Assembly: GCA_964582615.1 (NCBI GenBank)
Contig: CAZORP010000005.1
Span: forward strand, 11,994-75,993
Direction: 5' to 3'
Length of the DNA: 64,000 bases
Source: an uncultured Gammaproteobacteria bacterium
GTDB taxonomy: Bacteria; Patescibacteriota; Patescibacteriia; UBA9934
Shown here: piece after piece, positions 7,692-36,636 of the stretch
Position numbering within the stretch: the first letter of the stretch is position 1
How the letters are laid out: each line of letters starts with the position of its first letter
Position numbers and translations under genes: made by a program
The notes under the pieces: generated by a model
Database searches by the model: none
What the model was told of the DNA's origin: nothing
The model's input: the letters and a program-made list of their open reading frames with translations, nothing else

Positions 7692-7694
7692 CCT

Positions 7695-9446: not shown

Positions 9447-9516
9447 TAACCATCGAAAAGTTCCATCTTTTATTCATCTGCTACACTTTCTGAAAAAAAC
9501 TCTGAGATTCTTTTTT

Positions 9517-10044: not shown

Positions 10045-10060
10045 CCATCACGCTGGGCAT

Positions 10061-11572: not shown

Positions 11573-12002
11573 GCTCTTGTTCCAACTGGCGACCTTCTTC
11601 AATCAACGAAGCAAGATTCGTGCGCGCATTTTCCATGAGTACAACATCCTGCGATGAAGCCTTTTGAAGCTCCCCCTGTAAGCGAAGAAGCTCCCCCTGC
11701 AACACGTTGCATGCATTTTGCAAAAGTCCCTCATGAATTCCGCGATACCCACGCAAATGCTGGAGTTCTTTTCCAGAAGACCAACCTTGACCGCCCATAA
11801 AAGACCCACTCGCCCGACGAAGCAAACGCTGAAGTCGAAGAATGTACTCACGCGCTGTTTCGACATTCCAAGATCCGTTATACACCAAATCTCCCCCATC
11901 TAAAGGATTCTGCGCTCGGAGTATGTCATTCATCTGGGAAAGTGCCGCGCGATCACGTTCTGGATCTCTGAAAAATTTTTTCATTTGCTCAAAAATTCTC
12001 AT
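11559..12002 (-). CDS. Hypothetical protein (147 aa)
   Basis: ATG-initiated ORF convergent with phr; no recognised domain. Confidence 0.4.
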   Translation of the reverse strand: MRIFEQMKKFFRDPERDRAALSQMNDILRAQNPLDGGDLVYNGSWNVETAREYILRLQRLLRRASGSFMGGQGWSSGKELQHLRGYRGIHEGLLQNACNVLQGELLRLQGELQKASSQDVVLMENARTNLASLIEEGRQLEQELNRF

Positions 12003-12052
12003 ATAATATCAGTGTATCATAGAAGAGGTCTCATATTCCTTAACACCACCCA

Positions 12053-12670
12053 ATGTCTCAAGAAAAAAATCAGCACCCTCACACCTGGGAGGATTTTCGT
12101 GATGCATTTTATAGAAAAGGCCTTAAAATTGAAGGGGATTTTTCCAACTATCCACGCTACACACTTGATGTTCTTCCCGAATTATCCGAAATGACTCAAG
12201 CCCTCATGCGCGAGTGGGAGGACGCTTTCCTCGCAGAGCTTTCATCCATAACAAACAACAAAGAAATCATCAACTTTCTTACAAGTAACAACCGACACCT
12301 TCCAAGTTTCACACTTATACCCCCACAACAGGGGTACAACTTTATCAACAAAGAACGATCGCTTCGTCAAAGACGCTACCCTCTCGAGAGAACTTCAGCC
12401 ATCCTCATCTTCAACCTACCAAAAGTTTTTCAACGCTATTGGTGGAAAAGCAAGGAGGCAACTCGAGAAATGACCATCGCGTGGGGCTATCTTTACAATG
12501 TCATGATGAGAGTTTTTTGGAAGTACGGTGACGTTCTTGAAAATGGCAAGGGCCTTCCCCTATACCTCTCTCGGATCTCAGAAAAAAAGCGTCATGTAAA
12601 AAATGTCTATCATTACGTCTGGGAAGTCATCCCGGACCCCGTAAAGCCTTGGGATAACCTCAAGATATAA
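12053..12670 (+). CDS. Hypothetical protein (205 aa)
   Basis: ATG start and clean intergenic spacing; no recognised domain. Confidence 0.5.
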   Translation: MSQEKNQHPHTWEDFRDAFYRKGLKIEGDFSNYPRYTLDVLPELSEMTQALMREWEDAFLAELSSITNNKEIINFLTSNNRHLPSFTLIPPQQGYNFINKERSLRQRRYPLERTSAILIFNLPKVFQRYWWKSKEATREMTIAWGYLYNVMMRVFWKYGDVLENGKGLPLYLSRISEKKRHVKNVYHYVWEVIPDPVKPWDNLKI

Positions 12671-12715
12671 AGATTCTTCCTGCTATGCTATGGGGTGAAG
12701 ATTTTTTTCTTTACT

Positions 12716-14488
12716 ATGCATAGCTTTTTTAAAAAAATTGCGGCAGGAAGCGCGGTCTTTGCACTCGCAGGAGGGCCAAGTCTCGCACACGCCGCAAGTC
12801 TTATTACTGACGGAAACGATCCTCTTTTTGATTATTCCTTTACCGAGGAAAATACTTCATGGAGAATTACCACGACCTCAGATAGCGCAACGGTTGAGGA
12901 GATCGAAAGCGACTTCGTGGGAGAATCAGATCAACACCTCACCGACGACTCTGGTTGGTCGAGTATTTTCAGCGGAGATGATGACGACAGAAGTCTTGCT
13001 GTGGATCTTGGGTACTCGCTTTCATTTGGAGGAGAGGCATATGACACCGCATTTATCTCATCCAATACTTACATCAGCTTCCATGAAGGTTCAGAACTCT
13101 ACTGGGACCTCAGAGAAGACCGTCCCGCGCTTCCCAGCATCCACCTCTGTTCAGGAGATCACTCTTATCAAGAAGTTTACCAAGAAAATGGAGAAGGCTT
13201 TACCCGTATACGTTACGAAGGAACTGACGACACGGATGCTGGAGAAGATTCTCCTAATATCATTTACGAGGTAGTTTTCTACGCCGGAGAAAACTATATT
13301 GACGTCCACATGGGAACAAACGCGGCGTGTGATGGCGAAGACGGGAGCACTCTTCCCTATTTTCATGGCTATGCCGCCGTTGGCCAAACTCTTCATGGAA
13401 ACGAAGGAAACTTTCCAGCATCAGGAGCGCCCTACGAATACCAGTATCAGTGGCAGAGAGGGTTTGAGGGAGAATTCGAAGACATCGAAGATGCAACCCA
13501 ACTTCACTACACCATCACTGAAGAAGACATTGGAGCATCTTTGCGCCTTACCGTCACCGGAATAACTCTCGATGATGAGGAAATAATGCATATAAGTGAC
13601 CCTTCGGACGATGTCCAAGAAATCAACATCATCTCCTCGTGCGCTGAATTATTCGCCATTGATGAAACCCATGACTCAGGAGATGCCTTTGCACTTACAG
13701 GAAACATCGACTGCGACGGCGTAGAAACTCATCCACTCTGGTACTCTGGGGAATCGGGAGAAAACTTCACCGGATTATTTGATGGAAAAAATTACACCAT
13801 TGAGAACCTCTCACTATCATCATTGGGCCAAGGTGGTTTGTTTTATCAAATCGCCGACGATGCAGTAATCACCAATATAAACTTTACTGACTCTACTATC
13901 TCAGGAGAAGGCGATTACCTTGGAACTCTTTCTGGCTACATGACCGGAGGAACGATTACCAATATTACCATTGATGGGTCCGTTGATAACACCGGAGGCT
14001 ACACCGGAGGACTCATTGGAAATATTACCACTGGGGAAAGTTCCTATCCGGTTATTATTTCCAATGTTTATTTTACAGGAAGTGTACACGGTGACGGATC
14101 TTACACGGGAGGAATTGCAGGGTCTCTCTACAGTGGAGATGCTATGGAACTCGTCGACATCTCTCATCTTACTGTTGACGCTGATATTTCAGGTTCTTCT
14201 GACTACGTAGGAGGTATTGCAGGCCAAGCCAGCACCGACGATGGTCAGATTGATATCTCAACCTCAAGCGTACAAGGTAGCGTTGTTGGAGATTATGACT
14301 ACGTTGGTGGAATTGTAGGATTTGCAAGTGCATGGTCTGGTATTACAGGAACCATTGTTCGCATTGAGATGAATGATGTATATACCAGCGCAAACATCAG
14401 TGGAGTAGCAACGGTTGGTGGAATTGTTGGATCTGCCATTATAGGCCTGTCAGAAGGCAGTGACACTGAGATTAATATCCGCATATAG
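12716..14488 (+). CDS. Giant secreted surface protein A, 5' part: signal peptide plus GLUG-motif-like repeats. Interrupted by a frameshift near 14480.
   Basis: Signal peptide MHSFFKKIAAGSAVFALAGGPSLAHA. Repeated xYxGG(I/L)(A/V)G modules (YTGGLIGN, YTGGIAGS, YVGGIAGQ, YVGGIVGF, TVGGIVGS). Confidence 0.7.
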   Translation: MHSFFKKIAAGSAVFALAGGPSLAHAASLITDGNDPLFDYSFTEENTSWRITTTSDSATVEEIESDFVGESDQHLTDDSGWSSIFSGDDDDRSLAVDLGYSLSFGGEAYDTAFISSNTYISFHEGSELYWDLREDRPALPSIHLCSGDHSYQEVYQENGEGFTRIRYEGTDDTDAGEDSPNIIYEVVFYAGENYIDVHMGTNAACDGEDGSTLPYFHGYAAVGQTLHGNEGNFPASGAPYEYQYQWQRGFEGEFEDIEDATQLHYTITEEDIGASLRLTVTGITLDDEEIMHISDPSDDVQEINIISSCAELFAIDETHDSGDAFALTGNIDCDGVETHPLWYSGESGENFTGLFDGKNYTIENLSLSSLGQGGLFYQIADDAVITNINFTDSTISGEGDYLGTLSGYMTGGTITNITIDGSVDNTGGYTGGLIGNITTGESSYPVIISNVYFTGSVHGDGSYTGGIAGSLYSGDAMELVDISHLTVDADISGSSDYVGGIAGQASTDDGQIDISTSSVQGSVVGDYDYVGGIVGFASAWSGITGTIVRIEMNDVYTSANISGVATVGGIVGSAIIGLSEGSDTEINIRI

Positions 14489-15863
14489 CTCAGGACTTCT
14501 TACCACTACAGAAGGAGGGGCTGGAGGCATCATTGGATACGCTTCTTCACCACTTGAAAATACAAGAATAACCATTGATGACAGCTTCTCTCGAGCATCG
14601 TACGGAACTTCAGGATGGCCAAGTATTAACGCTTATTCCACAGAATTCCCTCCACAGGTTAGTAACTTCTCCTTCGATGCAACCGCGGCAGATACGCTTA
14701 TTTGTGACCAAGAAGAAGCTTTTTCCTGCACTGTTGTTAATGAATCGGCAGATGAAGATGATTTCTTCTTTATAACAACACATAGCCCAATGGACTCTTG
14801 GGATTTTGATGATGTGTGGCAAGAAGAAACCGATGCCCTTCCAACGCTCAGAGTTGTGTATACCTATACCGAGCCCCTCGTCACAACGACTCCCGCACAT
14901 GGACGAGCATCTCATCGCGCCACGCTTTCAGGAGAAATTCTTGATAACGGCGGAGCCGCAGTTACCGAAGTTGGCGTTATTTACGGAACAACACGAGAGT
15001 ACGGTAACACCGTATCAGACGAGGGATTCTTTGAAGCCGGCAGTTTCGATGTTACCGTAAGCGGACTTCACTGCGGAAGAACCTACTATTACCGCGCTTT
15101 TGCAATAAACCAAATGGGCACCACGCTCGGAAGAAGTGAAACCTTCAGAACCTCAAGTTGCGACGATGACACCCCATCATCGGGAGGAGGATCGTCATCA
15201 TTGCCGTCTATACCAGACGCTTCCAATGAAGACTCCTCAGAAGAGGCTACACCAGAAGACACATCATCAGGCGAAGAATCGTCAACCGAGGAGGAGGAAG
15301 ATGAGGAGCAATCCCCCATCCACCGCGATGACGCAACATCTTCCTACGACACCTCTCGTCAACGATTTGTTGCAGAAGATTCTGGAGAAGTAGATAGCTC
15401 AGGTCGAGCATTGTCACGTGTTGCTTCAGGATGGTTTGTTCGCAGTGAACAGTTCTCAACGGTGTACTACATTGATAGCTCTTATGTACGTCATCCACTT
15501 TGGGATACACAAACGTTCTTTACATGGGCAGATTCATGGGATGACATTACCTGGGTTACCGATGCTACCCTTGCAACCATGCCCCTTGGAAAGCCAGTGC
15601 TTCCTAAGTCTGGAGTGGTGCTTGTGAAACTTGAGAGTGATCCTTCGGTATATGCGGTAGATGAAGATACTTCAGGAAACAGTATCCTTCGCCGCGTTCC
15701 TTCCGAAGAAGATGCTCGTGCACTCTTTGGATCTTCTTGGCAGTCGTACGTCATTGATATTCCTCCTACGATCTTCCCTCACTTTGGTAAGGGATCTCCC
15801 CTGACCAAGGATGAGGCATGGGATGCGGGAGGGATGAAGGAACGAGCATTGTTAAGCCTTTAA
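14460..15863 (+). CDS. Giant surface protein A, 3' part (GTG-opened frame): more GLUG-like repeats, an Fn3-like domain, an acidic S/E-rich linker and the C-terminal domain shared with protein B
   Basis: Continues the repeats (GGAGGIIGYASS) in a different frame. Fn3-like GRTYYYRAFAINQMG. The last ~176 codons are identical to the end of the 21112-24552 ORF. Confidence 0.7.
   Translation: MTLRLISAYSSGLLTTTEGGAGGIIGYASSPLENTRITIDDSFSRASYGTSGWPSINAYSTEFPPQVSNFSFDATAADTLICDQEEAFSCTVVNESADEDDFFFITTHSPMDSWDFDDVWQEETDALPTLRVVYTYTEPLVTTTPAHGRASHRATLSGEILDNGGAAVTEVGVIYGTTREYGNTVSDEGFFEAGSFDVTVSGLHCGRTYYYRAFAINQMGTTLGRSETFRTSSCDDDTPSSGGGSSSLPSIPDASNEDSSEEATPEDTSSGEESSTEEEEDEEQSPIHRDDATSSYDTSRQRFVAEDSGEVDSSGRALSRVASGWFVRSEQFSTVYYIDSSYVRHPLWDTQTFFTWADSWDDITWVTDATLATMPLGKPVLPKSGVVLVKLESDPSVYAVDEDTSGNSILRRVPSEEDARALFGSSWQSYVIDIPPTIFPHFGKGSPLTKDEAWDAGGMKERALLSL
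15309..15836 (+). repeat. 528-bp perfect direct repeat, copy 1 (3' module of giant gene A)
   Basis: Identical line by line to 23989-24516 (offset 8680 bp); identity breaks at both flanks. Confidence 0.95.
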
Positions 15864-15891
15864 AAAAACACGCCTTCGGGCGTGTTTTTTT
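15862..15891. terminator. Bidirectional intrinsic terminator
   Basis: aaaaaaaCACGCCttcgGGCGTGttttttt lies between convergent genes. Confidence 0.8.
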
Positions 15892-15905
15892 ATATCTCGA
15901 GTTTT

Positions 15906-17762
15906 TTAGTACTCAGTAACGATATTGAGTTGGGGAATGTGCACCATTCCAGCAAGGATAAGATTTTGCATATCTTTTTCCTCGGGAGTCTTCGGGCTTG
16001 GCATCTCTCCCCCAAGATACATCTTTAACCACATTTTCTGTCCAAAGTCATACCCCTCAGCTCGACGTAAAGCCTTTCTTGCAAGATCATCTTCACCAAA
16101 AATTTCGCTTCGTGAGGTTCCGCGTAACTCCTCATCTTTTCGCAACGATGCAAAAGAGAGCATGTCTTCGTAAAGTTCAAGAAATGTTGCGAGATCTTTG
16201 GCATACTCCGCATGCGCGACACGTCGTCCAGAAAATATCTCAGAAGCATCGCCTTTCTCACGAAGAAGAATTTCCTTCAACCTGCCCGGAAGGCCACTCC
16301 ATAGGCGATCGCGCGCAACATAACTCATTATCTCGGATGATGTAAAACTTTCGCGATCAGACGGTGAGAGTTCAGCGATGCTCAAGCGGATTTCTTGTAC
16401 TGCGAATCGCAAACAGTCTCGACGTAATATGATACCAGGAAGACGATCGCCGAGAGAGTCTTTTCTTAGATTTTCCCTTGCTTTATATAAAGATTCCCGC
16501 ATCTTTATAAGTTCTTGACGACGGGGCTCAAGTTCTTTTCGAGCGCGCGCAACCTCCTGCAATTGATCGCGAAGATTTTCACTCTTTTTTTGCACGCCCT
16601 CTCTTCTCCACTTCCACGCATCATACGCATAGGCATCCTGAAGATGCTTTGGAAGTTCACCCTTCGCACCAGCAATTGCATCAGCAATAACATCAGGACG
16701 CTCAAGTTCGCTGCGAAGATTCTCCACATACGCTCTTGCTTGAGCAAGCTTCTGACCAAGTTGGCGCTTCTTCACTATTCTCCAAGAAGAACACTCCGCC
16801 TCTTCTTTTTCAAGCTCACGAAGACGAACCTCGCGCTCTGCGGCTCGCAATTTACTCTCAATTCGTTCAGATCGCTCTTGACGATTCTTGTACGAAAGCG
16901 CATCTCGCTCGTCTTCTTTAACAATACGAAGAGCTTCTTTTTGCATGCGAAGCTCATGGCTATCAAGCTGTTTCTTCGCTTTAAGACGTTCAAAAATATT
17001 CCAGAGCGGAATCTTTTCATACGCCGCCGTTAACATCTGCTGACGTTCACGAAACGACGCCCAAGAATGCGGGAGATTCTCGGACTTATCGTGAAGAGAC
17101 TCCCCGCGAAGAGCGGGTCTTTGAGGAACTCCAAGTACAACTCTTGTGATTTCTTTTTGAGGAACCCTCTCAACTTCAAGAGGAGTAATAAACCTATCAG
17201 GCAACTCTTCAAGAATACCTTCCGACGTATCAAGAGGGGCAAGGAATTCATCAGGCAACTCTTCCGGAATATTCAGTGAAAGAGTTTTAACGTGCATTAA
17301 CATTGCATCAAGAAGGTGCTCCTCAAGAAGCATTCCCTGCCTATCCCTCGCTCGACCATCAGCATCAGCTTCGCTTATCTGCTTATGGAGTTCTTGTCGG
17401 CGGCGTATAAGTACCGCTTGATACTTCTGCACGGAGGGAAACGCACCTACCTCACGATCAACGCGCTCCCTCGCAAGAAGAGCGGCGAGTTCTCGAGCTT
17501 CTCCAAGCACCTGAGCTCGACTGCCATCATATGGCCCAGTATTAACATACCTCTGCTTAAGAGAGCTCCAGTAACTCTCATGATCTATCCCAGATTCGAG
17601 ACGCAACTGTGCAAGTCTTCTTCCTGCATCCTGGAGAGCATCCGCCTTATTCCTTGGATCTTTATGAGGAACAACTCCTTGGGAAGACCCTACTTCTAAT
17701 CTTGGCGAGCGACGCTCTGGGGGTCTACGCTCTGGGGATCCAGATGCAGAAAATCTTTCCAT
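15906..17762 (-). CDS. Hypothetical highly charged coiled-coil protein (618 aa)
   Basis: Long ATG ORF rich in E/R/K/L heptad-like segments. Transcribed divergently from giant gene B. Confidence 0.6.
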   Translation of the reverse strand: MERFSASGSPERRPPERRSPRLEVGSSQGVVPHKDPRNKADALQDAGRRLAQLRLESGIDHESYWSSLKQRYVNTGPYDGSRAQVLGEARELAALLARERVDREVGAFPSVQKYQAVLIRRRQELHKQISEADADGRARDRQGMLLEEHLLDAMLMHVKTLSLNIPEELPDEFLAPLDTSEGILEELPDRFITPLEVERVPQKEITRVVLGVPQRPALRGESLHDKSENLPHSWASFRERQQMLTAAYEKIPLWNIFERLKAKKQLDSHELRMQKEALRIVKEDERDALSYKNRQERSERIESKLRAAEREVRLRELEKEEAECSSWRIVKKRQLGQKLAQARAYVENLRSELERPDVIADAIAGAKGELPKHLQDAYAYDAWKWRREGVQKKSENLRDQLQEVARARKELEPRRQELIKMRESLYKARENLRKDSLGDRLPGIILRRDCLRFAVQEIRLSIAELSPSDRESFTSSEIMSYVARDRLWSGLPGRLKEILLREKGDASEIFSGRRVAHAEYAKDLATFLELYEDMLSFASLRKDEELRGTSRSEIFGEDDLARKALRRAEGYDFGQKMWLKMYLGGEMPSPKTPEEKDMQNLILAGMVHIPQLNIVTEY

Positions 17763-17884
17763 ATCACTAAGTATACTTGAGTGCTTGTTTCACAGAAAAA
17801 ATTATACACATATTTTTTTTCAAAAAATGCTTTTTTAAAAAAGAAAACCAACTTAATTCGTGCTATTATAGAAAAAATTTTGCT

Positions 17885-20800
17885 ATGCATTTTTTCAAAA
17901 AATTTCTCTCACTTTTTAGCCTTATAACCCTTGGTATTTTAGCGGTACTTCACCCGACTATAACTCACGCCGATCCCGATACTACTCCCCCATCATTTGT
18001 ATCCGCCTATATTACCGGCGACCATAGCGTCACCATTACCTATTCAGAAACGCTTTGGTGGAATTTTTCTGATGCATATGCGAACTTTACCGGAGATTTT
18101 GCAGGAAAAAACATCATCGCACAGAGTGAAAATTCCTCAAGCAATCATATTGTCCTTATTTTTGACGGTCCTGTTTTTGAAAGCAACTTCTCGGGAACAC
18201 TCGATATTCTCGCGGGAGAAGTTCAGGACTTTTCAGGAAATGCCTTTGGTGGGCTTTCCGGTGTACTCATTACCCGCCAACCACAAGCAACACAAGTAAT
18301 CTGGAATGATGTCGACGCTTCAAGAGATTTTTCCGGAACCGATACCCTCACGGTGCAGTTCAGTACTGTCATGAACGAATCTTCAATTACCACAGAAAAC
18401 ATTGATAGCCGCCTCGGTCTTTCCGCGGGAACATTTGGAACTTCCGCCGCGGGACTTAGCCTCTCATGGGACCTCATGGGAGATCCCTCCTTCTCAACAC
18501 TCACCATTACTCTTGGCAGTGATACAACCATCGTTCACGGAGCAACCATCAATCCAAGCTCAAGCGTTACCAATAGCTCAGGAGCTCCGGACGCAACACC
18601 ATCAAACCTTATCCTCAGTACCGATTATTACTTTGCAGAATTTTGGAATCTTCCCGCGGAGTCCGATGAATCTCCAGCTTTTCCCACGGGAGAGCCGGAT
18701 TATCAATCAAATAGTGAGGAAATTAATTTCATGTGGAGTGAGGAATCTCCAAATCCCGCCATTAACACCGACGATTTTGCGGCTCGTTTTACAAGAACCA
18801 CAACACTTACCAACAATCATTACACCTTTTCCTTCAGCGAACTTGATGACGGAGTCAAACTTTATATTGATGATGAACTCATCTTTTCTTCATGGGTCGA
18901 TCAGGGATCCGCAAGTTATAACGTAGAAGCTCGAATAACACCAGGAGAACACACCATCGTTCTGGAATATTATGAAAACGGTGGAGGTGCAGGTATTATC
19001 TTTAGCATGTCAGGTGACACGCTCGCGGACACTGTGTATGTTGATTCCACATATGCAAGCGAACTTGCCAACGATGGTCACACCTGGGGTTACGACGCAT
19101 TTTCAAATATTTTTAGCGCCATTAGCGCGACTGCGGGAAATGGAACCGTACACATCGGTGATGCAGAGTGGGCAACTTCTGACAGCATCAATCTCACCTT
19201 CCCTATTACCATAGATGGCGAAGGTGCAGGCATAACTCGAATAAAAAACGTTTCCTGTACAACGGTATTTAACATTCAATCAAGCAACGTTACCATTCAA
19301 GATCTTACCGCAGGAAGTTACGACGGTTTTGGATCGGATCTCTGCACAAGTAGTGACGTTATTTACGCGGTTGGAACGTCCACGACACCAATTAGTTCAA
19401 TTTCACTTTCCCATGTAGACCTCCACGGTGGAGATGGAGGAGTTTATTTTGGCGAATATATTTCAGACGCTACCGTTACCGGAAGTACAGTATCGGAAGC
19501 ATATACAGGAATTTACCTTGCCAGCTCAACTGATGTTACAATCTCGGGATCGACACTTGAAAACAATACCGCGGAAGCAATCTTCTTTACCCTTGGATCC
19601 TGCGAGGAATGCAGTCTCATGCCACCGTCAATGATCACTATTGACGACAACCTCATTCAAGGAAATCTTGGCGCGGGAATTACCCTAGAAACCGGCGACA
19701 CCATTACCATTTCTTCAAATACCATCTCCGATAACGGATGGGATTGGTGGGATATCTCAGGCGGTATCGTTGTACGAGGAGAGTGGGGGGAAACGCGCAG
19801 TCTTACTATTTCAGGAAATACCCTCTCTCAAAATTCAGCTCACGGTATCTACATTCATCAACCAACTGACCTTGAAGCAGATGCTCCAACACTAAGCGAC
19901 AACATCATCGTTCGAACAGGCATGAATGATGCCGACGAAACATATCCTGCAACGGCAGGTGTAACAATTCTTGCTTCAAGCGTTACCTGTGAGGGAAATT
20001 CTATTGGAGAAAATTCAGGATCGGGTATCGTCCTTGGAAGTATCGATGTTTACCCAGAAAATGTTACGATCAGTACCAATATCCTTGGATCTTTTACGCT
20101 TCCCGATACAACTTCCTACGGAGGAAATACCGCGAATGGTCTCACCGTCGTCCACTTCGCCGGCACCGCAAATAGCATTCACCAAAACATTATTAGAGAT
20201 AATGCATTACTCGCCGCAGAAAATAGCAATGGCTCTGAGATTGACTTAACACTCAACTACTGGGGACATTTTACGGGACCATTTCATTCTTCGGAGCACA
20301 TGACTGGTCGAGGCGATACCATTGGTAACGATATTCTTTTTACACCCTACAATGAAGGACCGGAAACCCTCACGCTTAACGATCCTCTTGTAAGTTTCTT
20401 TAGCGCCCCTGAAGATGCCTCAGAAATCACCGACGCTACGCTTGGCGTAGTACTTGAAACCAGCGCATCTCGAGATCAGCACGCAGCTTTCGTTTCTCGC
20501 AACGATGACCTTTTAGCCTTCTGGAGATTTGAGAACATGGGACCAAATGAGGGATCTTTAAGCATCCCTATGAACGTTGGCGGAGCAGACCCCTATCTTT
20601 ATCAAGGACATTACGGAAGCTCAGCAAAATTCGATGGTGTGAGTGCACTTTTCGCAAATGAAAGCATCCTTTCATCACGTCCAGAGTTTACCCTTGCAGG
20701 ATGGGTTTACATCGACGAAGACGTGCTCTCAGGTCAACGACGCGGATTCTTCGGTGAGAATAATGCCTTTGAAGTTGGTTTTGACACCGATCACCTCACC

Positions 20801-21355
20801 ATTTATACCGACCTTGTAGGAAATGTTAGTTGGGAGGTAACTCCAGAAAATTTCCCTGTTCGCACATGGCATCACATTGCCGCAGTTTTTGAACCTTCCG
20901 GAACAAATCCCCTTACGCTTTATGTTGATGGCGTAGCTGTTGCCGAAGGTGGCAGTTCTGGACCCTATGTCACGGAAGGATTCTACGAATCCCCTCTTGC
21001 GCTTGGCGGTGCGTCATTGACGCTTCCTGTGGGGACGATGCGCTTGTTGGAAGACTTGATGATGTATTTCTCTTCAATCGAGCACTGCAAAGCGACGAAG
21101 TCCTCTCCCTTATGGACGCAGGAGAAAATCCCTACACGAATCTTACCTACCCACTTGATGACGGTGAGTACACTATTCAAGGTTTCGTTATTGATGGCGG
21201 TGGCGACATGGAATCAACCTCGTCGCGGTCATTCTTTGCAACATACACCCCTCCTGTATACAGCCTCTACGTTGACGATGACTACACGCCCGAAGGAGAA
21301 AATGATGGTCATGTTTGGGGAGAAACAGCATTCGCGGATCTTGATAGCGCGCTAG
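17885..21355 (+). CDS. Giant secreted surface protein B, 5' part: signal peptide, PA14 domain, parallel beta-helix (PbH1) repeats and a LamG/ConA-like domain. The frame breaks by -1 near 21017; the last ~110 codons of this ORF are out of frame.
   Basis: Signal peptide MHFFKKFLSLFSLITLGILAVLHPTITHA. PA14-like DDGVKLYIDDELIFSSW...YYENGGGAGIIF. PbH1 repeats (NTISDNGWDWWDISGGIVV, NTLSQNSAHGIYIH). LamG core TLAGWVYIDED...TLYVDGVAV. Confidence 0.75.
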   Translation: MHFFKKFLSLFSLITLGILAVLHPTITHADPDTTPPSFVSAYITGDHSVTITYSETLWWNFSDAYANFTGDFAGKNIIAQSENSSSNHIVLIFDGPVFESNFSGTLDILAGEVQDFSGNAFGGLSGVLITRQPQATQVIWNDVDASRDFSGTDTLTVQFSTVMNESSITTENIDSRLGLSAGTFGTSAAGLSLSWDLMGDPSFSTLTITLGSDTTIVHGATINPSSSVTNSSGAPDATPSNLILSTDYYFAEFWNLPAESDESPAFPTGEPDYQSNSEEINFMWSEESPNPAINTDDFAARFTRTTTLTNNHYTFSFSELDDGVKLYIDDELIFSSWVDQGSASYNVEARITPGEHTIVLEYYENGGGAGIIFSMSGDTLADTVYVDSTYASELANDGHTWGYDAFSNIFSAISATAGNGTVHIGDAEWATSDSINLTFPITIDGEGAGITRIKNVSCTTVFNIQSSNVTIQDLTAGSYDGFGSDLCTSSDVIYAVGTSTTPISSISLSHVDLHGGDGGVYFGEYISDATVTGSTVSEAYTGIYLASSTDVTISGSTLENNTAEAIFFTLGSCEECSLMPPSMITIDDNLIQGNLGAGITLETGDTITISSNTISDNGWDWWDISGGIVVRGEWGETRSLTISGNTLSQNSAHGIYIHQPTDLEADAPTLSDNIIVRTGMNDADETYPATAGVTILASSVTCEGNSIGENSGSGIVLGSIDVYPENVTISTNILGSFTLPDTTSYGGNTANGLTVVHFAGTANSIHQNIIRDNALLAAENSNGSEIDLTLNYWGHFTGPFHSSEHMTGRGDTIGNDILFTPYNEGPETLTLNDPLVSFFSAPEDASEITDATLGVVLETSASRDQHAAFVSRNDDLLAFWRFENMGPNEGSLSIPMNVGGADPYLYQGHYGSSAKFDGVSALFANESILSSRPEFTLAGWVYIDEDVLSGQRRGFFGENNAFEVGFDTDHLTIYTDLVGNVSWEVTPENFPVRTWHHIAAVFEPSGTNPLTLYVDGVAVAEGGSSGPYVTEGFYESPLALGGASLTLPVGTMRLLEDLMMYFSSIEHCKATKSSPLWTQEKIPTRILPTHLMTVSTLFKVSLLMAVATWNQPRRGHSLQHTPLLYTASTLTMTTRPKEKMMVMFGEKQHSRILIAR

Positions 21356-24300
21356 AAATCGCAACGCCAAACTCAACGATCACCATGGCATCGGGCTATT
21401 ACGAAACTGTTCTTGGTTACGATATCACTCTCGAAGGACTCACCATCGAAGGCCCTGAAGACATGAGTGCACGTATCGTAAATCCGCTCTGCGGGGATGT
21501 TTTTAACATCTACGCACCATCGGTCACCATCACCCACCTCACCCTCGAAGAACGCGATGGCGATGGAGCGATCTGTGAAGAAAATGAGGTCATAAGCCTA
21601 TGGCATGATCCTGAAAGCATATGGGACGCTTCGTCTGCCGAAATAAGTTACAACGTCATCACGGGAGGTTATCGAGGAGTATATCTCTCAGGACACATGG
21701 AGGACGTAACTATTACATCAAACACCATCTCTGAAAGTACATATGGCATTCGATCTTACGGTGGAAAACGAACAGTTATCGACGATAATACTATTATAGA
21801 AAATTTTATTGGTATTCGTTTTGATGACCATGACTGTAGCGAGGAAGGCTGTGAAAGTTATCCCGAAGACGTCATCATTCAATTCAACAACATCAGCTAT
21901 AACGACGAAGACGGTCTTAATCTTGACGAAGGAAAACGAACCATCGTTTCGGGCAATGCCTTCTTCGAAAATGGTCATGATTCTGAATTTGGAGGAGGAA
22001 TCTACATATCCGACATCGGACTTGATGGAACAGAAATTGATACAAATACGTTCATCAACAACGTATCTTACGGTATCTACATCTCTGCTGAGGAAACCAG
22101 CGCGGAAAGCCCTATATCTATCACGAATAACACCATTCTTCAAGACACCGTAGGTGAGGATACTCGCGGAATTGATGTAAATGGAGACTATATTTCCATC
22201 ACCGAAAATAGTATCGCCGGCTACGCTGAAGGAATTCGCGCCTGCAGTGACTATCTCAATACTGCAACCATTTCCGAAAATACCCTCGGAGCCATCACTA
22301 TCGAAGATACAAGTTTCCCCGGAAACACCATCGGACTAGGCATGTACTGCGGAGACACTGTCACCGTTGAGCGTAATACCTTTTCAGGAAACGAAGTCGG
22401 TCTTCATAACTTTTCAACAGAAACCGTGACCGCTCAATACAACTACTGGGGTGCGGCATCAGGACCAACAAACCTCACCAACCCCGAGGGATCCGGAGAT
22501 CAGCTCAATGAAAACGACGGCATCTTCACTAATCCTTATACTTACGGAGAAGAAGATGGAACGTATCATTTCCTTGTAACACTTTCCGCTCCCAACAACA
22601 ACGTCATCTACCGTCCCTTCTTTAGCGATGAAGAAATGACTACGGAAGTCACCGGAGAAAACATCCCCTTCACGTTAACTCGAGCAGGCGTTAGCTTTGG
22701 AGAGTCCTCCGTTGAAGAGTCCACCTTAGCGCAAGAGGACAGCGAAGGTCTCCTCTTTGGAGAATATACCTTCACAAGCGACAGCCCACTTTCCTGTGGA
22801 AGATCTTATCTTTACCGCTACGATGCAACGCTTAACGATGAGGTATTCCTTTCAACAACGGAAACCTTTATCGCCGATGCGTGTACCGATAACGAAGGAC
22901 CTGAAATCGTTACTATTTCAGCAGAAGCAGAAGAGACGACCGCGACGCTCTCCTTTGAAACCAATGAACGATCGTCGTACCTTCCTCGAATTGGCACACA
23001 CCTCGATCTTCTTGAAGAACTCTTCCTTGAGGACGATGCATTTACTACAGCAGAACATACTGCAGAATTTGATGAACTTACCCCCTGTACGAAGTACTAC
23101 GTCACTCTTGAACTCTCTGACAGTCTTGGAAATGTCTCAACAGATACCGTGGCAGAATTTACCACGCAAGGATGTCCCGGAAATGCAGAAATGGTGAATA
23201 TTGGAACGGAAATTTTTGACCCCGAAGAAAGCGAATTGTTTGGACTTTCCGCCGAAGATTTCTCAGCCAGCATTTTCGCAGATGAAGACTTCTTCATTCT
23301 TCCCACCGCCTTCCAAATGTCACTCTTTATTGCCGATGAAGTTTTTGACGGTATGGGCGATCCCGCAAGAACAACACTCGCAAGCTCACACCTTGCCCAA
23401 GTGAATGCTTTCGTTTTTGGAACCAATCTTGTAGAAACCCTAAGTGAACCCATTTCCGTCAGTGTAAACTACGACGCCGAACTCGTTCCCGAAGAAGATC
23501 TTGAAAAACTCTTCATCTACAGCTATCGCAACCATCACTGGAGTAAACTCTCTGACTGCACCACGGACACCGAGGAATATCGCATTACATGTACTACCGA
23601 CGAGCCCGGGCTCTTTGGAGCTTTTATCCAGGAAGATCGTCGATCGTCATCATCAGCACCAGCAACGCCTCCTCGCGTCGTTTCGGAAACCCCAGAAGGA
23701 ACCGTGCCAACCTGCACCCTACCTCGAAAAACCACCTCACTCAACATCCCCTTCTCTTGTACCGCAACGGGAAGCTCAACACGTTCCATGAGCTTTACCG
23801 AAACCTACCAAGGAAAAACATCCTTATCCTCTGGTCGCTACACTTCCAAAGATACCCTTCTTCTTCGCGAAGGCGCCGGAGAACACACCATTGTCATCAC
23901 ACTTACATCACAGACGGGAGAAATCCTCACCCTACCCACGTTTACCGTCACGGTAGAAGATGCCCACGGACAGATCTCAACATCATCTCAATCCCCCATC
24001 CACCGCGATGACGCAACATCTTCCTACGACACCTCTCGTCAACGATTTGTTGCAGAAGATTCTGGAGAAGTAGATAGCTCAGGTCGAGCATTGTCACGTG
24101 TTGCTTCAGGATGGTTTGTTCGCAGTGAACAGTTCTCAACGGTGTACTACATTGATAGCTCTTATGTACGTCATCCACTTTGGGATACACAAACGTTCTT
24201 TACATGGGCAGATTCATGGGATGACATTACCTGGGTTACCGATGCTACCCTTGCAACCATGCCCCTTGGAAAGCCAGTGCTTCCTAAGTCTGGAGTGGTG

Positions 24301-24552
24301 CTTGTGAAACTTGAGAGTGATCCTTCGGTATATGCGGTAGATGAAGATACTTCAGGAAACAGTATCCTTCGCCGCGTTCCTTCCGAAGAAGATGCTCGTG
24401 CACTCTTTGGATCTTCTTGGCAGTCGTACGTCATTGATATTCCTCCTACGATCTTCCCTCACTTTGGTAAGGGATCTCCCCTGACCAAGGATGAGGCATG
24501 GGATGCGGGAGGGATGCTCTCTCGCGCACAGATTTCCGCCGCATCGTTATAG
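20930..24552 (+). CDS. Giant surface protein B, 3' part: completes the LamG domain (..GRLDDVFLFNRALQSDEVLSLMDAGENP), then more PbH1 repeats with NYWG..SGP motifs, Ig/Fn3-like domains and the shared C-terminal domain. The frame is open from ~20930; the first ATG is at 21112.
   Basis: The canonical LamG terminal motif lies in the +2 frame immediately after the break. Beta-helix repeats follow (NTISESTYGIRSYGG, NNISYNDEDGLNLDEG). Confidence 0.75.
23989..24516 (+). repeat. 528-bp perfect direct repeat, copy 2 (3' module of giant gene B)
   Basis: Identical to 15309-15836. Confidence 0.95.
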
Positions 24553-24587
24553 ACGTTTTTCCGCACACGTGGTACATCTGAGTCTCT

Positions 24588-25853
24588 ATGCGCCAACGCG
24601 AAGCACTTGCACTCATGTGTGCGGGAAATAATATTTTTCTCACAGGAGAACCGGGATCGGGGAAAAGTCACACCCTACGAACGTTCTGCGCATTTCTTCG
24701 CGCAGAGCATCGCAATTTTGCGGTAACCGCAAGCACCGGAATTGCCGCAACGCACATCGGAGGAACCACCATTCACGCGTGGAGCGGCATTGGTATCGCA
24801 AAACATCTCACCAAAAAAGCCTGCAAAGACCGAGGAAAAATCAATGGCTGTGCAAAGCGTATCGCAAATACTGAAGTCCTTATTATCGACGAAGTTTCCA
24901 TGCTTGATGCACAAGTTCTCGATACCGTGGATCTCATGTGTCGCGTACATCGCACCGCAGATCTCCCCTTCGGAGGTATGCAGGTTGTTTTTGTTGGAGA
25001 TTTCTTTCAACTCCCTCCTGTCGCACGTCACGATGAACCTCCTGCAAAATTCGCATTTCAAAGCGATGCATGGCAATCTCTCGACCTGCAGATTTGTTAT
25101 CTTGATGAACAGCACCGACAAGAAGACCCTCTTTTTCTTGAACTTCTTCGCGATATCCGCAAAGGGTCACCCACCGCAAAGCATCTCGAAACATTACAAA
25201 CTCGCATTCGAAAAACCGCACCAGAACATACAAAGCTTTTCTGCACCAATCTTGATGTCGACACCATGAACGCAGAGCATCTTTCCCGCATCAAAGAACC
25301 CCTCAAGGCTTTCACCATGACTACATTTGGAAATCCAAAAGCGATTGAGCAATTACAACGAGGATGCCTATCCCCCGAACGCCTTGAGCTGAAAAAGGGA
25401 GCTCGCGTCATGGTGACGAAAAATCTTCCCAGCAAACGATTGGTTAACGGAAGTATTGGTATTGTGGAAGATTTCGCAAAAGAAACTCACCTACCTCTTG
25501 TGCGATTTCCTTCCGGATCTCTTGTAAGCTTTGAACCCGAGGTTTGGAGCTTTGAAGGAACCAAAGAGGAACAAGCGAGCATTCGCCAAATTCCTCTTCG
25601 ACTTGCGTGGGCTATTACCATTCACAAGAGTCAAGGCATGTCACTCTCCGAAGCGTATATCGATCTTGAGAAGACGTTTACCTACGGCCAAGGCTACGTT
25701 GCTCTTTCTCGCGTGCGCACGCTGGCAGGCATTACACTTAAGGGAATTTCACCAAGAGCTCTCGAGGTGCATCCGGATATTCTTGTTTTCGACAATCACC
25801 TTCGCACCGCATCAAAAACCCTTGTGCCACAAAGAAAGAAGACGCTTTTTTGA
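24588..25853 (+). CDS. PIF1/RecD-like superfamily-1 DNA helicase
   Basis: Walker A FLTGEPGSGKSH; motif II LIIDEVSMLD; VVFVGDFFQLPPV. Confidence 0.8.
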   Translation: MRQREALALMCAGNNIFLTGEPGSGKSHTLRTFCAFLRAEHRNFAVTASTGIAATHIGGTTIHAWSGIGIAKHLTKKACKDRGKINGCAKRIANTEVLIIDEVSMLDAQVLDTVDLMCRVHRTADLPFGGMQVVFVGDFFQLPPVARHDEPPAKFAFQSDAWQSLDLQICYLDEQHRQEDPLFLELLRDIRKGSPTAKHLETLQTRIRKTAPEHTKLFCTNLDVDTMNAEHLSRIKEPLKAFTMTTFGNPKAIEQLQRGCLSPERLELKKGARVMVTKNLPSKRLVNGSIGIVEDFAKETHLPLVRFPSGSLVSFEPEVWSFEGTKEEQASIRQIPLRLAWAITIHKSQGMSLSEAYIDLEKTFTYGQGYVALSRVRTLAGITLKGISPRALEVHPDILVFDNHLRTASKTLVPQRKKTLF

Positions 25854-25917
25854 GGAAAAATCCTTATTTCATGCATGAATTTGAAAAAATGCCAAAAATG
25901 TGGTATACTAAAAAGTT

Positions 25918-26769
25918 ATGCATGAACAGCCAAAAAACACTCAAGATACTCTCACTCAAGAGACTCTTCTTGTAAAAGACGCAATCAAAATTCTTCGAGA
26001 AAAACTAGGGACAGCCTCACACCAAACCCTCAAACAAAGCCTCGTGGGACTTAGGTCAACACCAGGCTTGAGCGAAGAAGTTATTCGGGATCTTCAAGGG
26101 GGAAAACTTACCCAACGCGTTCTTGATGCCATCATCGCCATGCGCCCAAGCCTTCGTCCTGAAGGTTTTTTGGGTATTGATGAATTCTGTACTGCAGTTG
26201 GCTGTTCTCCAGATGAAGCAAAGATCAACGGTCTCCTTGATCGCTTTATGAAGCTTTACGGAGATTCAAATGTACTAAAAAGCTTTGATGTGTGGAGAGC
26301 CGGGGGTCATCGCTTTCCAGAAATTGGCGTCTTTGCTCGGTCTCCAAAAAATGGCTACGAAACATTTTTCTTTGCACCGGAAAGTGTCAAGTTATTCAAG
26401 GAATTCATAAAAGAGCATCGCAAAAAGCAAAAACTTCCAACGCAACCACCACTTCAGAACGAAGGAGTCCCCCTTCAAGAACTCACGGGAGCTATATATT
26501 CCCCTTCGAATCCTTCAAAAAAATTACCGGCAACCTTCGTAGCAGAAAGACCAGAAGCAAGTCCAAATCAACCCGATCGCTCACCACTCATAAACCGATG
26601 CTCAAGGCTTCTTAATGAAGACAATCGCTTAAAAAACTTACACTCTGATGAACGAAAGCGTGTTGCCGAGATTCTTGCACGACTCAACAAGCAAGAAGCC
26701 ATCGATCCTTCAACTGGAAGATTGCTCGCGCAACATATTGCAAAAATAGAAAGCCGTATCAAGGCTTAG
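25918..26769 (+). CDS. Hypothetical protein (283 aa)
   Basis: ATG ORF followed by the terminator at 26815-26841. Confidence 0.5.
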   Translation: MHEQPKNTQDTLTQETLLVKDAIKILREKLGTASHQTLKQSLVGLRSTPGLSEEVIRDLQGGKLTQRVLDAIIAMRPSLRPEGFLGIDEFCTAVGCSPDEAKINGLLDRFMKLYGDSNVLKSFDVWRAGGHRFPEIGVFARSPKNGYETFFFAPESVKLFKEFIKEHRKKQKLPTQPPLQNEGVPLQELTGAIYSPSNPSKKLPATFVAERPEASPNQPDRSPLINRCSRLLNEDNRLKNLHSDERKRVAEILARLNKQEAIDPSTGRLLAQHIAKIESRIKA

Positions 26770-26814
26770 CAAGTCGGGAATATAGCTCTTTTCGCTAAGC
26801 GGAATTTTATGCAC

Positions 26815-26841
26815 AAAAACCACCCTACAGGGTGGTTTTTT
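26815..26841 (+). terminator. Intrinsic terminator
   Basis: aaaaacCACCCtacaGGGTGGtttttt. Confidence 0.75.
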
Positions 26842-26897
26842 GAATCTTATCTTTACTTTATAAGAATAAAAAATCACTGAACATGTCAGTGATTTTT

Positions 26898-26972
26898 TGG
26901 TGACTCTACCGGGAATCGAACCCGGATTTAAGGCTTGAGAAGCCTCTGTCCTAACCGTTAGACGATAGAGCC
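26898..26972 (-). tRNA. tRNA-Glu (anticodon CUC), CCA encoded
   Basis: Cloverleaf folds by hand: acceptor GGCTCTA/TAGAGTC, anticodon stem GAGGC/GCCTT with loop TTCTCAA, T-arm CCGGG-TTCGATT-CCCGG. A hairpin terminator lies at 26868-26897. Confidence 0.85.
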
Positions 26973-27072
26973 GTACGAGAAGAGTGTAGCAAGGTCATGA
27001 AGTTTTCGCAAGATCTCCCCCTCCACAGGGGCTATAGAAAAAACTGATGGGATTTTGTTATAACTGATACCT

Positions 27073-34938: not shown

Positions 34939-34941
34939 TGT

Positions 34942-36633: not shown

Positions 36634-36636
36634 TGT

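What the first reader, a model, noticed from the sequence alone, without database searches (positions are those of the whole stretch)
15309..24516. Two giant adhesin-like genes share a 528-bp, 100%-identical 3' module
Positions 15309-15836 and 23989-24516 are identical base for base (offset 8680 bp), and identity stops abruptly at both flanks. The repeat encodes the last ~176 residues of both giant proteins (..SPIHRDDATSSYDTSRQRFVAEDSG...WADSWDDITWVTDATLATMPLGKPVLPKSGVVLVKLESDPSVYAVDEDTSGN...KDEAWDAGGM). The upstream parts of the two proteins are unrelated in sequence: GLUG-like repeats plus Fn3 in one, PA14 plus beta-helix plus LamG in the other. Perfect identity over 0.5 kb between otherwise divergent genes implies very recent gene conversion or recombination. 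It could be a shared anchoring or sorting module, or a recombination substrate for swapping variable 5' cassettes (an antigenic or host-range variation system). The shared domain has no TM segment and no LPXTG or other recognisable sorting signal, and I do not recognise it as a described domain. A PIF1-family helicase gene follows immediately downstream.
Basis: seen in the sequence. Interest (0 to 1): 0.75.

Follow-up and report, generated by a model that had tools for sequence, protein, structure and literature searches.

The report
Shared cell-surface tail on two genes
Two neighbouring surface-protein genes of an uncultured ultra-small (Patescibacteria/CPR) bacterium carry a base-for-base identical 528-bp 3' segment, most likely from a recent copy between genes, and it encodes a very common but uncatalogued C-terminal domain that probably holds secreted proteins on the cell envelope; it is not a cassette-switching system.

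Summary
Positions 15309-15836 and 23989-24516 are 528/528 identical, and the flanks are at random identity. An independent short-read assembly (Logan, SRR16481183) breaks exactly 30 nt inside three of the four repeat junctions.

The window is a Patescibacteria chromosome related to Candidatus Uhrbacteria. The repeat encodes almost all of a ~155-aa C-terminal domain:
- The domain has no Pfam, NCBIfam or PDB sequence match.
- It occurs in more than 4,000 protein clusters at 50% identity.
- It nearly always sits at the extreme C-terminus of secreted multidomain proteins (Ig-like domains, S8 proteases, esterases).
- AlphaFold (pLDDT 95.8) gives two tandem alpha/beta repeats that weakly resemble EccB repeats and PlyCB/endolysin wall-binding domains.

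Identity stops 8 and 11 codons before the two stop codons. Both divergent tails still fit the family profile, so one pre-existing paralogous domain was probably overwritten by the other (gene conversion). Paralogous domains in other genomes are only 37-59% identical.

The repeats are direct, there are only two copies, and the window has no recombinase, so a cassette-swap or antigenic-variation system is not supported. The PIF1 neighbour looks incidental. Each "giant gene" is interrupted by a single-base frameshift; gene A's is reproduced in the independent assembly.

The parts
12716..14488 (+). Gene A, 5' ORF (590 aa). It has a signal-peptide-like N-terminus (MHSFFKKIAAGSAVFALAGGPSLAHA) and GLUG-like repeats, and ends at a premature stop after a frameshift.
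   Evidence: ORF list and translation. Weak Glug and Peptidase_M26_N hits. The exact 590-aa product is also recorded from Logan, on contig L011, which is identical to the window.
14477..14482 (+). Approximate site of the gene A frameshift (ATCCGC). The reading frame must move +1 somewhere within 14445-14488.
   Evidence: The three-frame translation shows the GLUG-like repeat pattern continuing in the next frame. Deleting one C gives a single 1,048-aa ORF. The same sequence is present in the independent Logan contig.
14460..15863 (+). Gene A, 3' ORF (467 aa): Fn3-like domain, acidic Ser/Glu linker, then the C-terminal domain.
   Evidence: identical to P0003. The profile of the C-terminal domain matches nt 15387-15857 at 216.6 bits.
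15309..15836 (+). Repeat copy 1 (528 bp, 176 codons): a linker plus almost the whole C-terminal domain of gene A.
   Evidence: Logan contigs end at 15338 and start at 15807.
15837..15863 (+). Gene A tail outside the identity tract (KERALLSL, then stop). It is a family-type 'MK[T/E]R..L' tail and is predicted to be helical.
   Evidence: The tail adds +6.9 bits to the family-profile score; 4 of 500 random tails did as well. Model helix at residues 153-157. Family tails are listed.
15864..15891 (.). Hairpin CACGCC-TTCG-GGCGTG flanked by an A-run and a T-run, lying between the convergent genes. It looks like a bidirectional intrinsic terminator.
   Evidence: Read directly from the sequence. The consensus scanner did not list it.
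15906..17762 (-). Intervening gene (618 aa), charged and coiled-coil-like, with no family match. It lies inside the 8.68-kb unit bounded by the repeats.
   Evidence: Also present on Logan contig L012. Not found near genes with this domain in other loci.
17885..21355 (+). Gene B, 5' ORF (1,156 aa): signal-peptide-like N-terminus, PA14, beta-helix and a truncated LamG domain. The frame is lost near 21031.
   Evidence: Pfam hits to PA14, Beta_helix, NosD, and Laminin_G_3 covering profile positions 14-123 of 151. Start codon chosen.
21031..21034 (+). GGGG run: the most likely site of the gene B frameshift (a one-base deletion) inside the LamG domain.
   Evidence: Adding one G gives a 2,222-aa ORF. 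It also raises the Laminin_G_3 hit from 50.9 bits (profile 14-123) to 75.7 bits (profile 13-150 of 151).
20929..24552 (+). Gene B, 3' reading frame (first ATG at 21112): a second beta-helix block, Fn3/Ig-like domains, then the C-terminal domain.
   Evidence: P0004 is this ORF read from a later ATG. Internal duplication: B1 versus B2 is 30% identical over 570 aa.
23989..24516 (+). Repeat copy 2 (528 bp): a linker plus almost the whole C-terminal domain of gene B.
   Evidence: Logan contig L003 starts at 24487. Profile match at nt 24067-24540, 215.5 bits.
24517..24552 (+). Gene B tail outside the identity tract (LSRAQISAASL, then stop). It is a diverged family-type tail of the long subtype.
   Evidence: The tail adds +6.2 bits to the family-profile score; 5 of 500 random tails did as well. 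Alignment to profile positions 159-164.

Best explanation
The two copies are a real, perfect 528-bp direct repeat in the chromosome of a Patescibacteria (CPR) bacterium related to Candidatus Uhrbacteria.

What the repeat encodes. It covers almost all of a C-terminal domain (CTD) of about 155 aa plus its linker. This CTD belongs to a very large, uncurated family that ends thousands of secreted CPR proteins with otherwise unrelated 'head' domains.

Proposed function (inferred). The CTD folds as two tandem alpha/beta repeats, each with four strands and two helices, closed by a short C-terminal helix. I propose it is a non-covalent cell-envelope retention module. The Sec-exported protein would stay attached to the producer's wall, through peptidoglycan or an associated glycopolymer, while the variable head points outward.

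Proposed origin of the identity (inferred). Both genes originally had their own diverged CTD. A recent non-reciprocal recombination (gene conversion) then copied one gene's linker plus CTD over the other's, ending 8-11 codons before the stop. That left the tails different and the heads untouched.

What it is not. It is a by-product of paralogy and proximity, not a programmed switching system. Its main consequence is that the 8.68-kb unit between the copies can now be deleted by homologous recombination.

Status of each step:
- Shown: the repeat and its boundaries; family membership and size; C-terminal placement; the predicted fold; the frameshifts.
- Inferred: wall binding; gene conversion as the copying mechanism.
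For: Repeat and junctions.

Taxon: the best named hits to TypA are 'Patescibacteria group bacterium' and 'Candidatus Uhrbacteria bacterium', with at most 86% identity. Housekeeping genes surround the locus.

Family:
- A profile search of 1.84 billion representatives gave 4,073 hits at E<=1e-3 and 3,143 at E<=1e-10.
- In 142 of the 150 top hits the domain ends within 11 residues of the C-terminus, and the tail 'MKTR..L' is conserved.
- Named members are Patescibacteria or Uhrbacteria hypothetical proteins.
- Partner domains are extracellular: Big_5 in 30 of 54 members, plus Kre9_KNH, Peptidase_S8, SASA esterase and GDSL lipase.
- 89 of 123 members that start with M have an N-terminal hydrophobic segment by a crude test.

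Fold:
- AF2 model with pLDDT 95.8 and secondary structure E-E-E-H-E-H twice.
- The top eight Foldseek PDB hits are all EccB.
- PMC4769845 describes EccB1 repeats as a 4-stranded sheet plus two helices that resemble the cell-wall-binding protein PlyCB.

Context consistent with envelope binding:
- Two members carry PG_binding_1 after the domain.
- Domain-like copies also occur at an N-terminal or internal position (L009, L010, P0072). That argues for a binding module rather than a terminal sorting tag.
- Genes with this domain sit beside glycosyltransferase, sugar-nucleotide or Mur-ligase genes in three independent synteny groups.

Gene conversion:
- Paralogous CTDs in other genomes are only 37-59% identical at the protein level and about 67% at the DNA level. 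The identity here is therefore exceptional and recent.
- Both non-identical tails score as family tails, with p about 0.01 each. Each gene therefore probably owned a CTD before the event.
- The tail is a structured helix of the domain, so the tract ends inside the domain.
Against: - The CTDs are acidic, with median pI 4.36. Many wall-binding modules that grip anionic polymers are basic.
- The almost obligatory extreme C-terminal position also fits a sorting or secretion signal.
- Typical paralogues share only about 67% DNA identity, which is poor substrate for homologous gene conversion. The 5' end of the tract lies about 12 codons upstream of the first recognisably conserved position. A copy-and-paste by illegitimate recombination is therefore not excluded.
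- The interior of the repeat has no independent check, so small differences could have been collapsed by the assembler.
- Both genes are frameshifted. The CTDs may not currently be translated in fusion with their heads.
- The glycan-gene neighbourhood rests on few independent loci.
Confidence: 0.55

Rival explanations
1. Assembly artefact. The two copies would be merely similar, with their differences merged when the assembler walked one collapsed repeat node twice. Alternatively, the contig mis-joins flanks, for example a chromosome with a single copy plus a separate 8.68-kb circular or tandem element.
For: The source is a metagenome-assembled contig of 79,794 nt, and all its proteins are singletons in the database. 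The Logan graph collapses the repeat, so nothing independent verifies its interior or the pairing of flanks. Both genes carry frameshifts.
Against: - Three of the four junctions are reproduced base-for-base in an independent assembly, with breaks exactly where a true repeat with two exits predicts.
- Both left flanks enter the repeat in frame, and both right flanks supply family-type tails and stop codons.
- The middle segment connects only to the repeat, so the linear path that uses the repeat twice is the simplest solution.
- Even under the alternative pairing, two genes would still share the module.
Confidence: 0.1
2. Recent domain shuffling rather than conversion. A 528-bp piece of one gene's 3' end would have been duplicated and pasted by illegitimate recombination onto a gene that previously had a different C-terminus or none.
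For: Identity drops to random immediately at both ends. The 5' end of the tract lies in a non-conserved linker. Diverged paralogues at about 67% DNA identity are poor substrates for RecA-type conversion. Anchoring-domain swapping among surface proteins is documented in Firmicutes (bioRxiv 10.1101/2025.04.02.646754).
Against: The 8-11 codons after the tract in both genes resemble family tails better than about 99% of random peptides. That is hard to explain if the recipient had no CTD. The paste would also have had to land in frame at both ends.
Confidence: 0.15
3. Rival function. The CTD would not be a wall-binding anchor but a C-terminal sorting, secretion or docking domain. A dedicated export or processing machine, or a surface receptor protein, would recognise it, in the manner of T9SS CTDs or dockerins.
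For: Extreme C-terminal placement in 142 of 150 members and a strongly conserved terminal motif, MKTR..L. Acidic pI, untypical of polymer-binding anchors. Structural similarity to wall-binding folds is weak.
Against: - Domain-like copies occur at N-terminal or internal positions in some proteins.
- PG_binding_1 follows the domain in two members.
- There is no match to known sorting-domain models in Pfam or NCBIfam.
- The terminal motif is part of a packed helix in the model.
- No conserved candidate partner gene was seen next to genes with this domain, only glycan-synthesis genes.
Confidence: 0.2
4. Programmed variation system. The identical module would be a recombination handle used to exchange or switch the variable heads (antigenic or host-range variation), possibly together with the frameshifts acting as phase switches and the PIF1 helicase.
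For: Perfect identity confined to the constant part of two surface-protein genes. Both genes carry single-base frameshifts, one in a G run. The helicase gene lies 36 nt downstream.
Against: - There are only two copies in 64 kb.
- The repeats are direct, so recombination deletes rather than swaps. No inverted repeats of 40 nt or more were found.
- Both genes have their own N-terminal signal sequence, so there are no silent cassettes.
- No recombinase or transposase domain was found in the ORFs scanned.
- The G4 and CC tracts are too short for typical slipped-strand phase variation.
- PIF1 is absent from other loci with this domain.
- Paralogous CTDs in other genomes are not homogenised.
Confidence: 0.05

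Closest known systems
EccB repeat domains (type VII secretion) and PlyCB / enterococcal endolysin cell-wall-binding domains (PDB 3x3m, 4f87, 6ist, 7d55)
Shared non-covalent anchoring modules of Gram-positive surface proteins (CWB2 of the Clostridioides difficile Cwp family, SLH, choline-binding repeats, GW, LysM)
   Same: One conserved module is appended to many otherwise unrelated secreted proteins of a genome. The genes are often clustered and lie near wall-glycopolymer synthesis genes. The modules are swappable in evolution (bioRxiv 10.1101/2025.04.02.646754).
   Different: None of those Pfam families matches. The fold is different and the domain is acidic rather than basic. Placement is almost exclusively C-terminal, and the ligand is unknown.
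C-terminal sorting signals (LPXTG/sortase, T9SS C-terminal domain, PEP-CTERM)
   Same: Obligatory position at the very C-terminus of secreted proteins with varied heads, and a conserved terminal motif.
   Different: There is no hydrophobic segment and no LPXTG signal. The 'LPKSG' inside the domain is the conserved PMLPKxG strand motif, about 85 residues from the end. There are no Pfam or NCBIfam sorting-domain hits. Some family members carry the domain internally or at the N-terminus.
Gene conversion and concerted evolution among paralogous surface-protein genes (for example Neisseria pilE/pilS and opa, Mycoplasma MgPa repeats; from general knowledge)
   Same: Non-reciprocal copying between nearby paralogous segments gives tracts of perfect identity with abrupt ends.
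   Different: In those systems the variable, exposed part is converted from silent cassettes to create diversity. Here the constant anchoring part is homogenised between two complete genes. No diversity is generated and there is no cassette archive.

Membership tests
Uncurated Patescibacteria C-terminal domain family (defined here by profiles A2/A3) | Full-length match to the family profile | tested here: met
   Both copies match profile positions 7-163 or 7-164 of 165 at about 216 bits. They still score 220-221 bits against a profile built without the window's own sequences.
Uncurated Patescibacteria C-terminal domain family (defined here by profiles A2/A3) | Placement at the extreme C-terminus, with a conserved M-K-[T/E]-R..L tail | tested here: met
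   142 of 150 family members end within 11 residues of the domain. Gene A ends MKERALLSL and gene B ends MLSRAQISAASL; both tails score as family tails.
EccB-repeat / PlyCB-like wall-binding fold | A unit of about 55 aa with a 4-stranded sheet and two helices, structurally superposable on EccB R1 or PlyCB | tested here: inconclusive
EccB-repeat / PlyCB-like wall-binding fold | Binds peptidoglycan or wall polysaccharide | not testable with these tools
   Only circumstantial evidence is available: co-occurrence with PG_binding_1 and glycan-synthesis neighbours. The acidic pI argues mildly against.
Sortase (LPXTG) cell-wall sorting signal | [quoted passage not shown] | tested here: not met
   The only LPx[TSA]G is LPKSG inside the folded domain, about 85 residues from the end. 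No hydrophobic stretch follows it.
Known wall-binding modules (SLH, CWB2, LysM, SH3b, PG_binding, choline-binding, GW) | Match to the corresponding Pfam model | tested here: not met
   The 184-aa C-terminal segment has no Pfam family at E<=0.01. None of these was reported within the CTD itself in 54 family members. PG_binding_1 occurs in two members, downstream of the CTD.
T9SS C-terminal domain / PEP-CTERM-type sorting domains | Match to the NCBIfam/TIGRFAM or Pfam sorting-domain models | tested here: not met
   The module has no NCBIfam hit and no Pfam hit.
Cassette-based antigenic variation (pilE/pilS, vlsE type) | One expression site plus several silent, promoter-less cassettes, with conversion of the variable region | tested here: not met
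   There are only two copies in the window. Both are complete genes with their own signal-peptide-like N-termini. The identical tract is the constant part, and the heads are unrelated. The rest of the genome was not available.
Invertible shufflon / recombinase-driven switch | Inverted repeats flanking the segment and a site-specific recombinase nearby | tested here: not met
   No inverted repeats of 40 nt or more. The copies are direct. None of the 38 window ORFs scanned has a recombinase, integrase or transposase domain.

The most novel reading that the evidence does not exclude
This uncatalogued C-terminal domain could be the general device by which Uhrbacteria-like Patescibacteria display secreted enzymes and adhesins on their own surface. 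That would make it a new class of cell-envelope anchor built from EccB/PlyCB-like repeats, binding a CPR-specific wall glycopolymer, with occasional gene conversion between neighbouring genes keeping anchors matched to the wall.
Probability: 0.35. Interest if true: 0.6.

Novelty: new variant of a known kind. Interest (0 to 1): 0.4.

Why it matters
Patescibacteria (CPR) are ultra-small bacteria; the cultivated ones live attached to other microbes as episymbionts. How they build and decorate their surface is largely unknown.

This domain terminates thousands of their secreted proteases, esterases and adhesin-like proteins. It is absent from the Pfam, NCBIfam and PDB sequence sets searched here. 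That makes it a concrete handle for three things:
- defining the CPR 'surfaceome' from sequence;
- building a curated family model;
- testing wall binding experimentally.

The perfect repeat itself is a textbook-type event, recent conversion between paralogous 3' ends. It matters mainly as a marker of genome instability at this locus, because the 8.68-kb unit can be deleted. It is also a caution for assembly and annotation of such genes.

Tried and rejected
- The first word-index homology search with the module found only two proteins. The exhaustive profile search was needed to see the family.
- I suspected that a frameshift upstream of the domain might be a recurrent, programmed feature, because the two first homologues were also split into overlapping ORFs. 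This was rejected: both splits are caused by runs of 10 N in the records.
- The search for related loci with the 57-sequence alignment failed because no stretch was conserved enough. The 3-sequence alignment worked.
- The AFDB Foldseek library was not available.
- BFVD gave only uncharacterised actinophage proteins.
- Sequence similarity between the two halves of the domain is not significant (hhalign P 0.12). The two-repeat architecture rests on the predicted structure only.
- Attempts to find the Logan contig for the repeat interior, or for gene B's left junction and frameshift, failed.
- The 'LPKSG' motif was considered as a sortase signal and rejected.
- A Campbell-type insertion of an 8.68-kb circle was considered. 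It does not explain the identity, and there is no integrase.
- The promoter/terminator scan of 12000-26000, the composition profile of 11000-27000 and Rfam on the whole window showed nothing special at the locus.
- Three literature searches found no description of this domain.

Full report
1. THE OBSERVATION

Positions 15309-15836 and 23989-24516 are identical at all 528 bases. The exact match cannot be extended by one base on either side, and the flanks are 22-28% identical over 50-500 nt, which is random (family D1). Chance cannot produce this.

Independent support comes from a separate short-read assembly of run SRR16481183 (Logan). Three of its contigs are identical to the window:
- one covers window 7291-15338;
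- one covers 15807-20423;
- one covers 24487-26935.

Their ends lie exactly 30 nt inside the repeat at three of its four junctions. That is what I would expect from a de Bruijn graph with k-1 = 30 when a segment really has two entries and two exits (the k value is my assumption). The interior of the repeat, and the pairing of left with right flanks, are not independently verified. A few collapsed SNPs cannot be excluded.

2. WHAT THE GENES ARE

The window is a bacterial chromosome. It carries glmS, a Mur ligase, TypA/BipA, DnaG, a sigma-70 factor, ProRS, ABC exporters and two tRNAs. The best named relatives of its TypA protein are 'Patescibacteria group bacterium' and 'Candidatus Uhrbacteria bacterium', at no more than 86% identity. 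Every window protein looked up is a singleton at 90% identity, on an NCBI contig of 79,794 nt.

As assembled, neither 'giant gene' is a single ORF.
- Gene A is 12716-14488 plus 14460-15863, in different frames.
- Gene B is 17885-21355 plus a frame open from 20929 to 24552.
- In gene A the GLUG-like repeat pattern continues across the frame change. Deleting one C near 14480 gives a 1,048-aa ORF.
- In gene B, adding one G to the GGGG run at 21031-21034 gives a 2,222-aa ORF. It also completes the interrupted LamG domain: Laminin_G_3 rises from 50.9 bits (profile 14-123 of 151) to 75.7 bits (profile 13-150).
- The gene A frameshift is present in the independent Logan contig, and its truncated 590-aa product is on record there. 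It is therefore unlikely to be an error of one assembler. Gene B's frameshift could not be checked.

Both genes begin with signal-peptide-like sequences. Their heads are unrelated apart from a weak Fn3-like match. Gene B contains an internal duplication of its beta-helix block, 30% identical over 570 aa.

3. WHAT THE SHARED MODULE IS

The module has no match in the curated libraries available here: Pfam at E<=0.01, NCBIfam and PDB sequences.

An exhaustive profile search of 1.84 billion representative proteins found 4,073 relatives at E<=1e-3 and 3,143 at E<=1e-10. In 142 of the 150 best hits the domain ends within 11 residues of the C-terminus, and the tail is conserved as 'MKTR..L'. Named members are hypothetical proteins of Patescibacteria or Uhrbacteria. 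Five genome records that carry it are titled 'uncultured Gammaproteobacteria bacterium', which I could not verify.

The proteins range from 150 to 2,445 aa, and their heads are extracellular in type:
- Big_5 Ig-like domains in 30 of 54 members;
- Kre9_KNH, subtilases, GDSL lipase, SASA esterase, LamG.

A crude test finds an N-terminal hydrophobic segment in 89 of 123 members that start with M.

AlphaFold2 with a 57-sequence alignment gives a confident model (pLDDT 95.8, pTM 0.86). It has two tandem units of strand-strand-strand-helix-strand-helix and a short terminal helix.
- The eight best Foldseek PDB matches are all EccB proteins, at E 0.05-0.4.
- PMC4769845 describes the EccB1 repeats as a four-stranded sheet with two helices, resembling the cell-wall-binding PlyCB. 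The authors treat this only as a hint of peptidoglycan binding.

The matches are consistent in kind but weak.

Other observations point the same way:
- PG_binding_1 follows the domain in two members.
- Domain-like copies occur at N-terminal or internal positions in a few large proteins (P0072, L009:1-327, L010:9-197).
- Genes with this domain lie next to sugar-nucleotide, glycosyltransferase or Mur-ligase genes in three synteny groups. L007/L009/L010 have a TPR protein, an S8 protease with the domain, an epimerase, two GT2 genes and two GT4 genes. L004/L005 have a UDP-glucose dehydrogenase. L008 has a Mur-ligase protein.

One observation points the other way: the domains are acidic, with median pI 4.36.

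4. WHY THE TWO COPIES ARE IDENTICAL

The window holds only these two copies. Paralogous domains in other genomes, including adjacent genes, are 37-59% identical in protein and about 67% in DNA. Perfect identity is therefore not a property of the family. It is a recent event at this locus.

The tract begins about 12 codons upstream of the first weakly conserved position of the module. It ends right after a conserved Met, 8 codons (gene A) and 11 codons (gene B) before the stop. The two remaining tails, KERALLSL and LSRAQISAASL, differ in DNA and protein. Each still adds 6-7 bits to the family-profile score, and only 4 and 5 of 500 random tails did as well, using a profile built without the window's own sequences. 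The tail is a packed helix in the model.

The simplest reading is that both genes already had their own diverged domain, and most of one was overwritten by the other through gene conversion. A copy-and-paste by illegitimate recombination onto a gene with a different end is the main alternative. It is favoured by the poor DNA identity expected between old paralogues.

5. WHAT IT IS NOT

- The copies are direct, so recombination between them deletes the 8.68-kb unit (the 618-aa gene plus the head of gene B). It does not swap heads.
- There are no inverted repeats of 40 nt or more.
- There are no further copies and no silent cassettes.
- No recombinase, integrase or transposase domain was found in the 38 window ORFs scanned.
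- The PIF1 helicase gene is real and starts 36 nt after gene B. Neither it nor the 618-aa gene accompanies genes with this domain in the other loci.
- The promoter/terminator scan and the composition profile of the surrounding ~15 kb, and Rfam on the whole window, show nothing unusual at the locus.
- The idea that frameshifts upstream of the domain are a family feature was dropped. The split homologues contain runs of N.

6. COMPARISON WITH KNOWN SYSTEMS AND VERDICT

Functionally the module behaves like the shared anchoring modules of Gram-positive surface proteins (CWB2, SLH, choline-binding repeats). Those are also appended to many unrelated proteins of one genome and swapped in evolution (bioRxiv 10.1101/2025.04.02.646754). 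It is not a member of any of those families. It lacks the features of sortase, T9SS or PEP-CTERM signals.

Structurally its closest relatives are the EccB repeats and PlyCB-like wall-binding domains, but membership of that fold class is only suggested.

The repeat is thus a real and recent conversion-type event between two frameshifted surface-protein genes. It is an ordinary phenomenon in an unusual organism. The more useful result is the large, uncatalogued C-terminal domain family that it exposes.

- Confidence in the composite explanation: about 0.55.
- The repeat is real: about 0.9.
- Family membership: about 1.0.
- Conversion rather than other copying: about 0.6.
- Envelope anchoring: about 0.5.

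Noticed in passing
window 14477-14482 and 21031-21034: Each of the two large surface-protein genes is interrupted by a single-base frameshift. Gene A has an extra base near ATCCGC. Gene B has a G4 run where G5 would restore a complete LamG domain and a 2,222-aa ORF. Gene A's frameshift is reproduced in the independent Logan assembly. Whether these are pseudogenes, recent mutations or population polymorphisms is unknown.
   Followed up: partly
window 33259-38340: Three tandem paralogous genes (559, 563 and 567 aa), only 15-24% identical to the first, with no Pfam match. Their junctions share a conserved 57-nt stop/start region (repeat D3, 34896-34952 and 36591-36647).
   Followed up: partly
window 46511-46577 and 47092-47158: A 67-nt direct repeat at 91% identity. 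The first copy overlaps the 3' end of tRNA-Gln (46458-46531). Each copy precedes a small ORF (46629-47000 and 47186-47761). It could be a shared leader or a remnant of a tRNA-associated duplication.
   Followed up: no
L009:1-327, L010:9-197; protein P0072: Diverged copies of the same domain sit at the N-terminal or internal part of large proteins (at least 1,300 aa) in Uhrbacteria-type genomes. P0072 has one copy at each end. The domain is therefore not strictly a C-terminal element.
   Followed up: partly
L007, L009, L010 (about 4.2-12.2 kb of each locus): Conserved gene order in three genomes: TPR protein, S8 protease carrying the C-terminal domain, NAD-dependent epimerase/dehydratase, two GT2 glycosyltransferases and two GT4 glycosyltransferases. 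Confirmed by per-gene Pfam scan in L010; inferred for L007 and L009 from matching ORF sizes and pooled Pfam counts. This suggests a link between the domain and surface-glycan synthesis.
   Followed up: partly
L004-L007, L009 (record titles): Five MAG records that carry this Patescibacteria-type domain are titled 'uncultured Gammaproteobacteria bacterium'. This is probably a taxonomic mislabel from an automated pipeline.
   Followed up: no
window 17885-24552 (gene B): Gene B contains an internal duplication. Its first beta-helix block and its second are 30% identical over 570 aa (E 4e-34).
   Followed up: partly
window 17176-17271: A 42-nt imperfect tandem-like repeat (79% identity, 54-nt spacing) inside the 618-aa charged protein gene on the minus strand. 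It corresponds to a repeated 'EELPDxF(I/L)xPL' peptide motif.
   Followed up: no
L001 about 787-796 and L002 about 1045-1054: The public records of the two closest homologues contain runs of 10 N inside the genes. Gene callers therefore split them into overlapping ORFs. This mimics frameshifts.
   Followed up: yes
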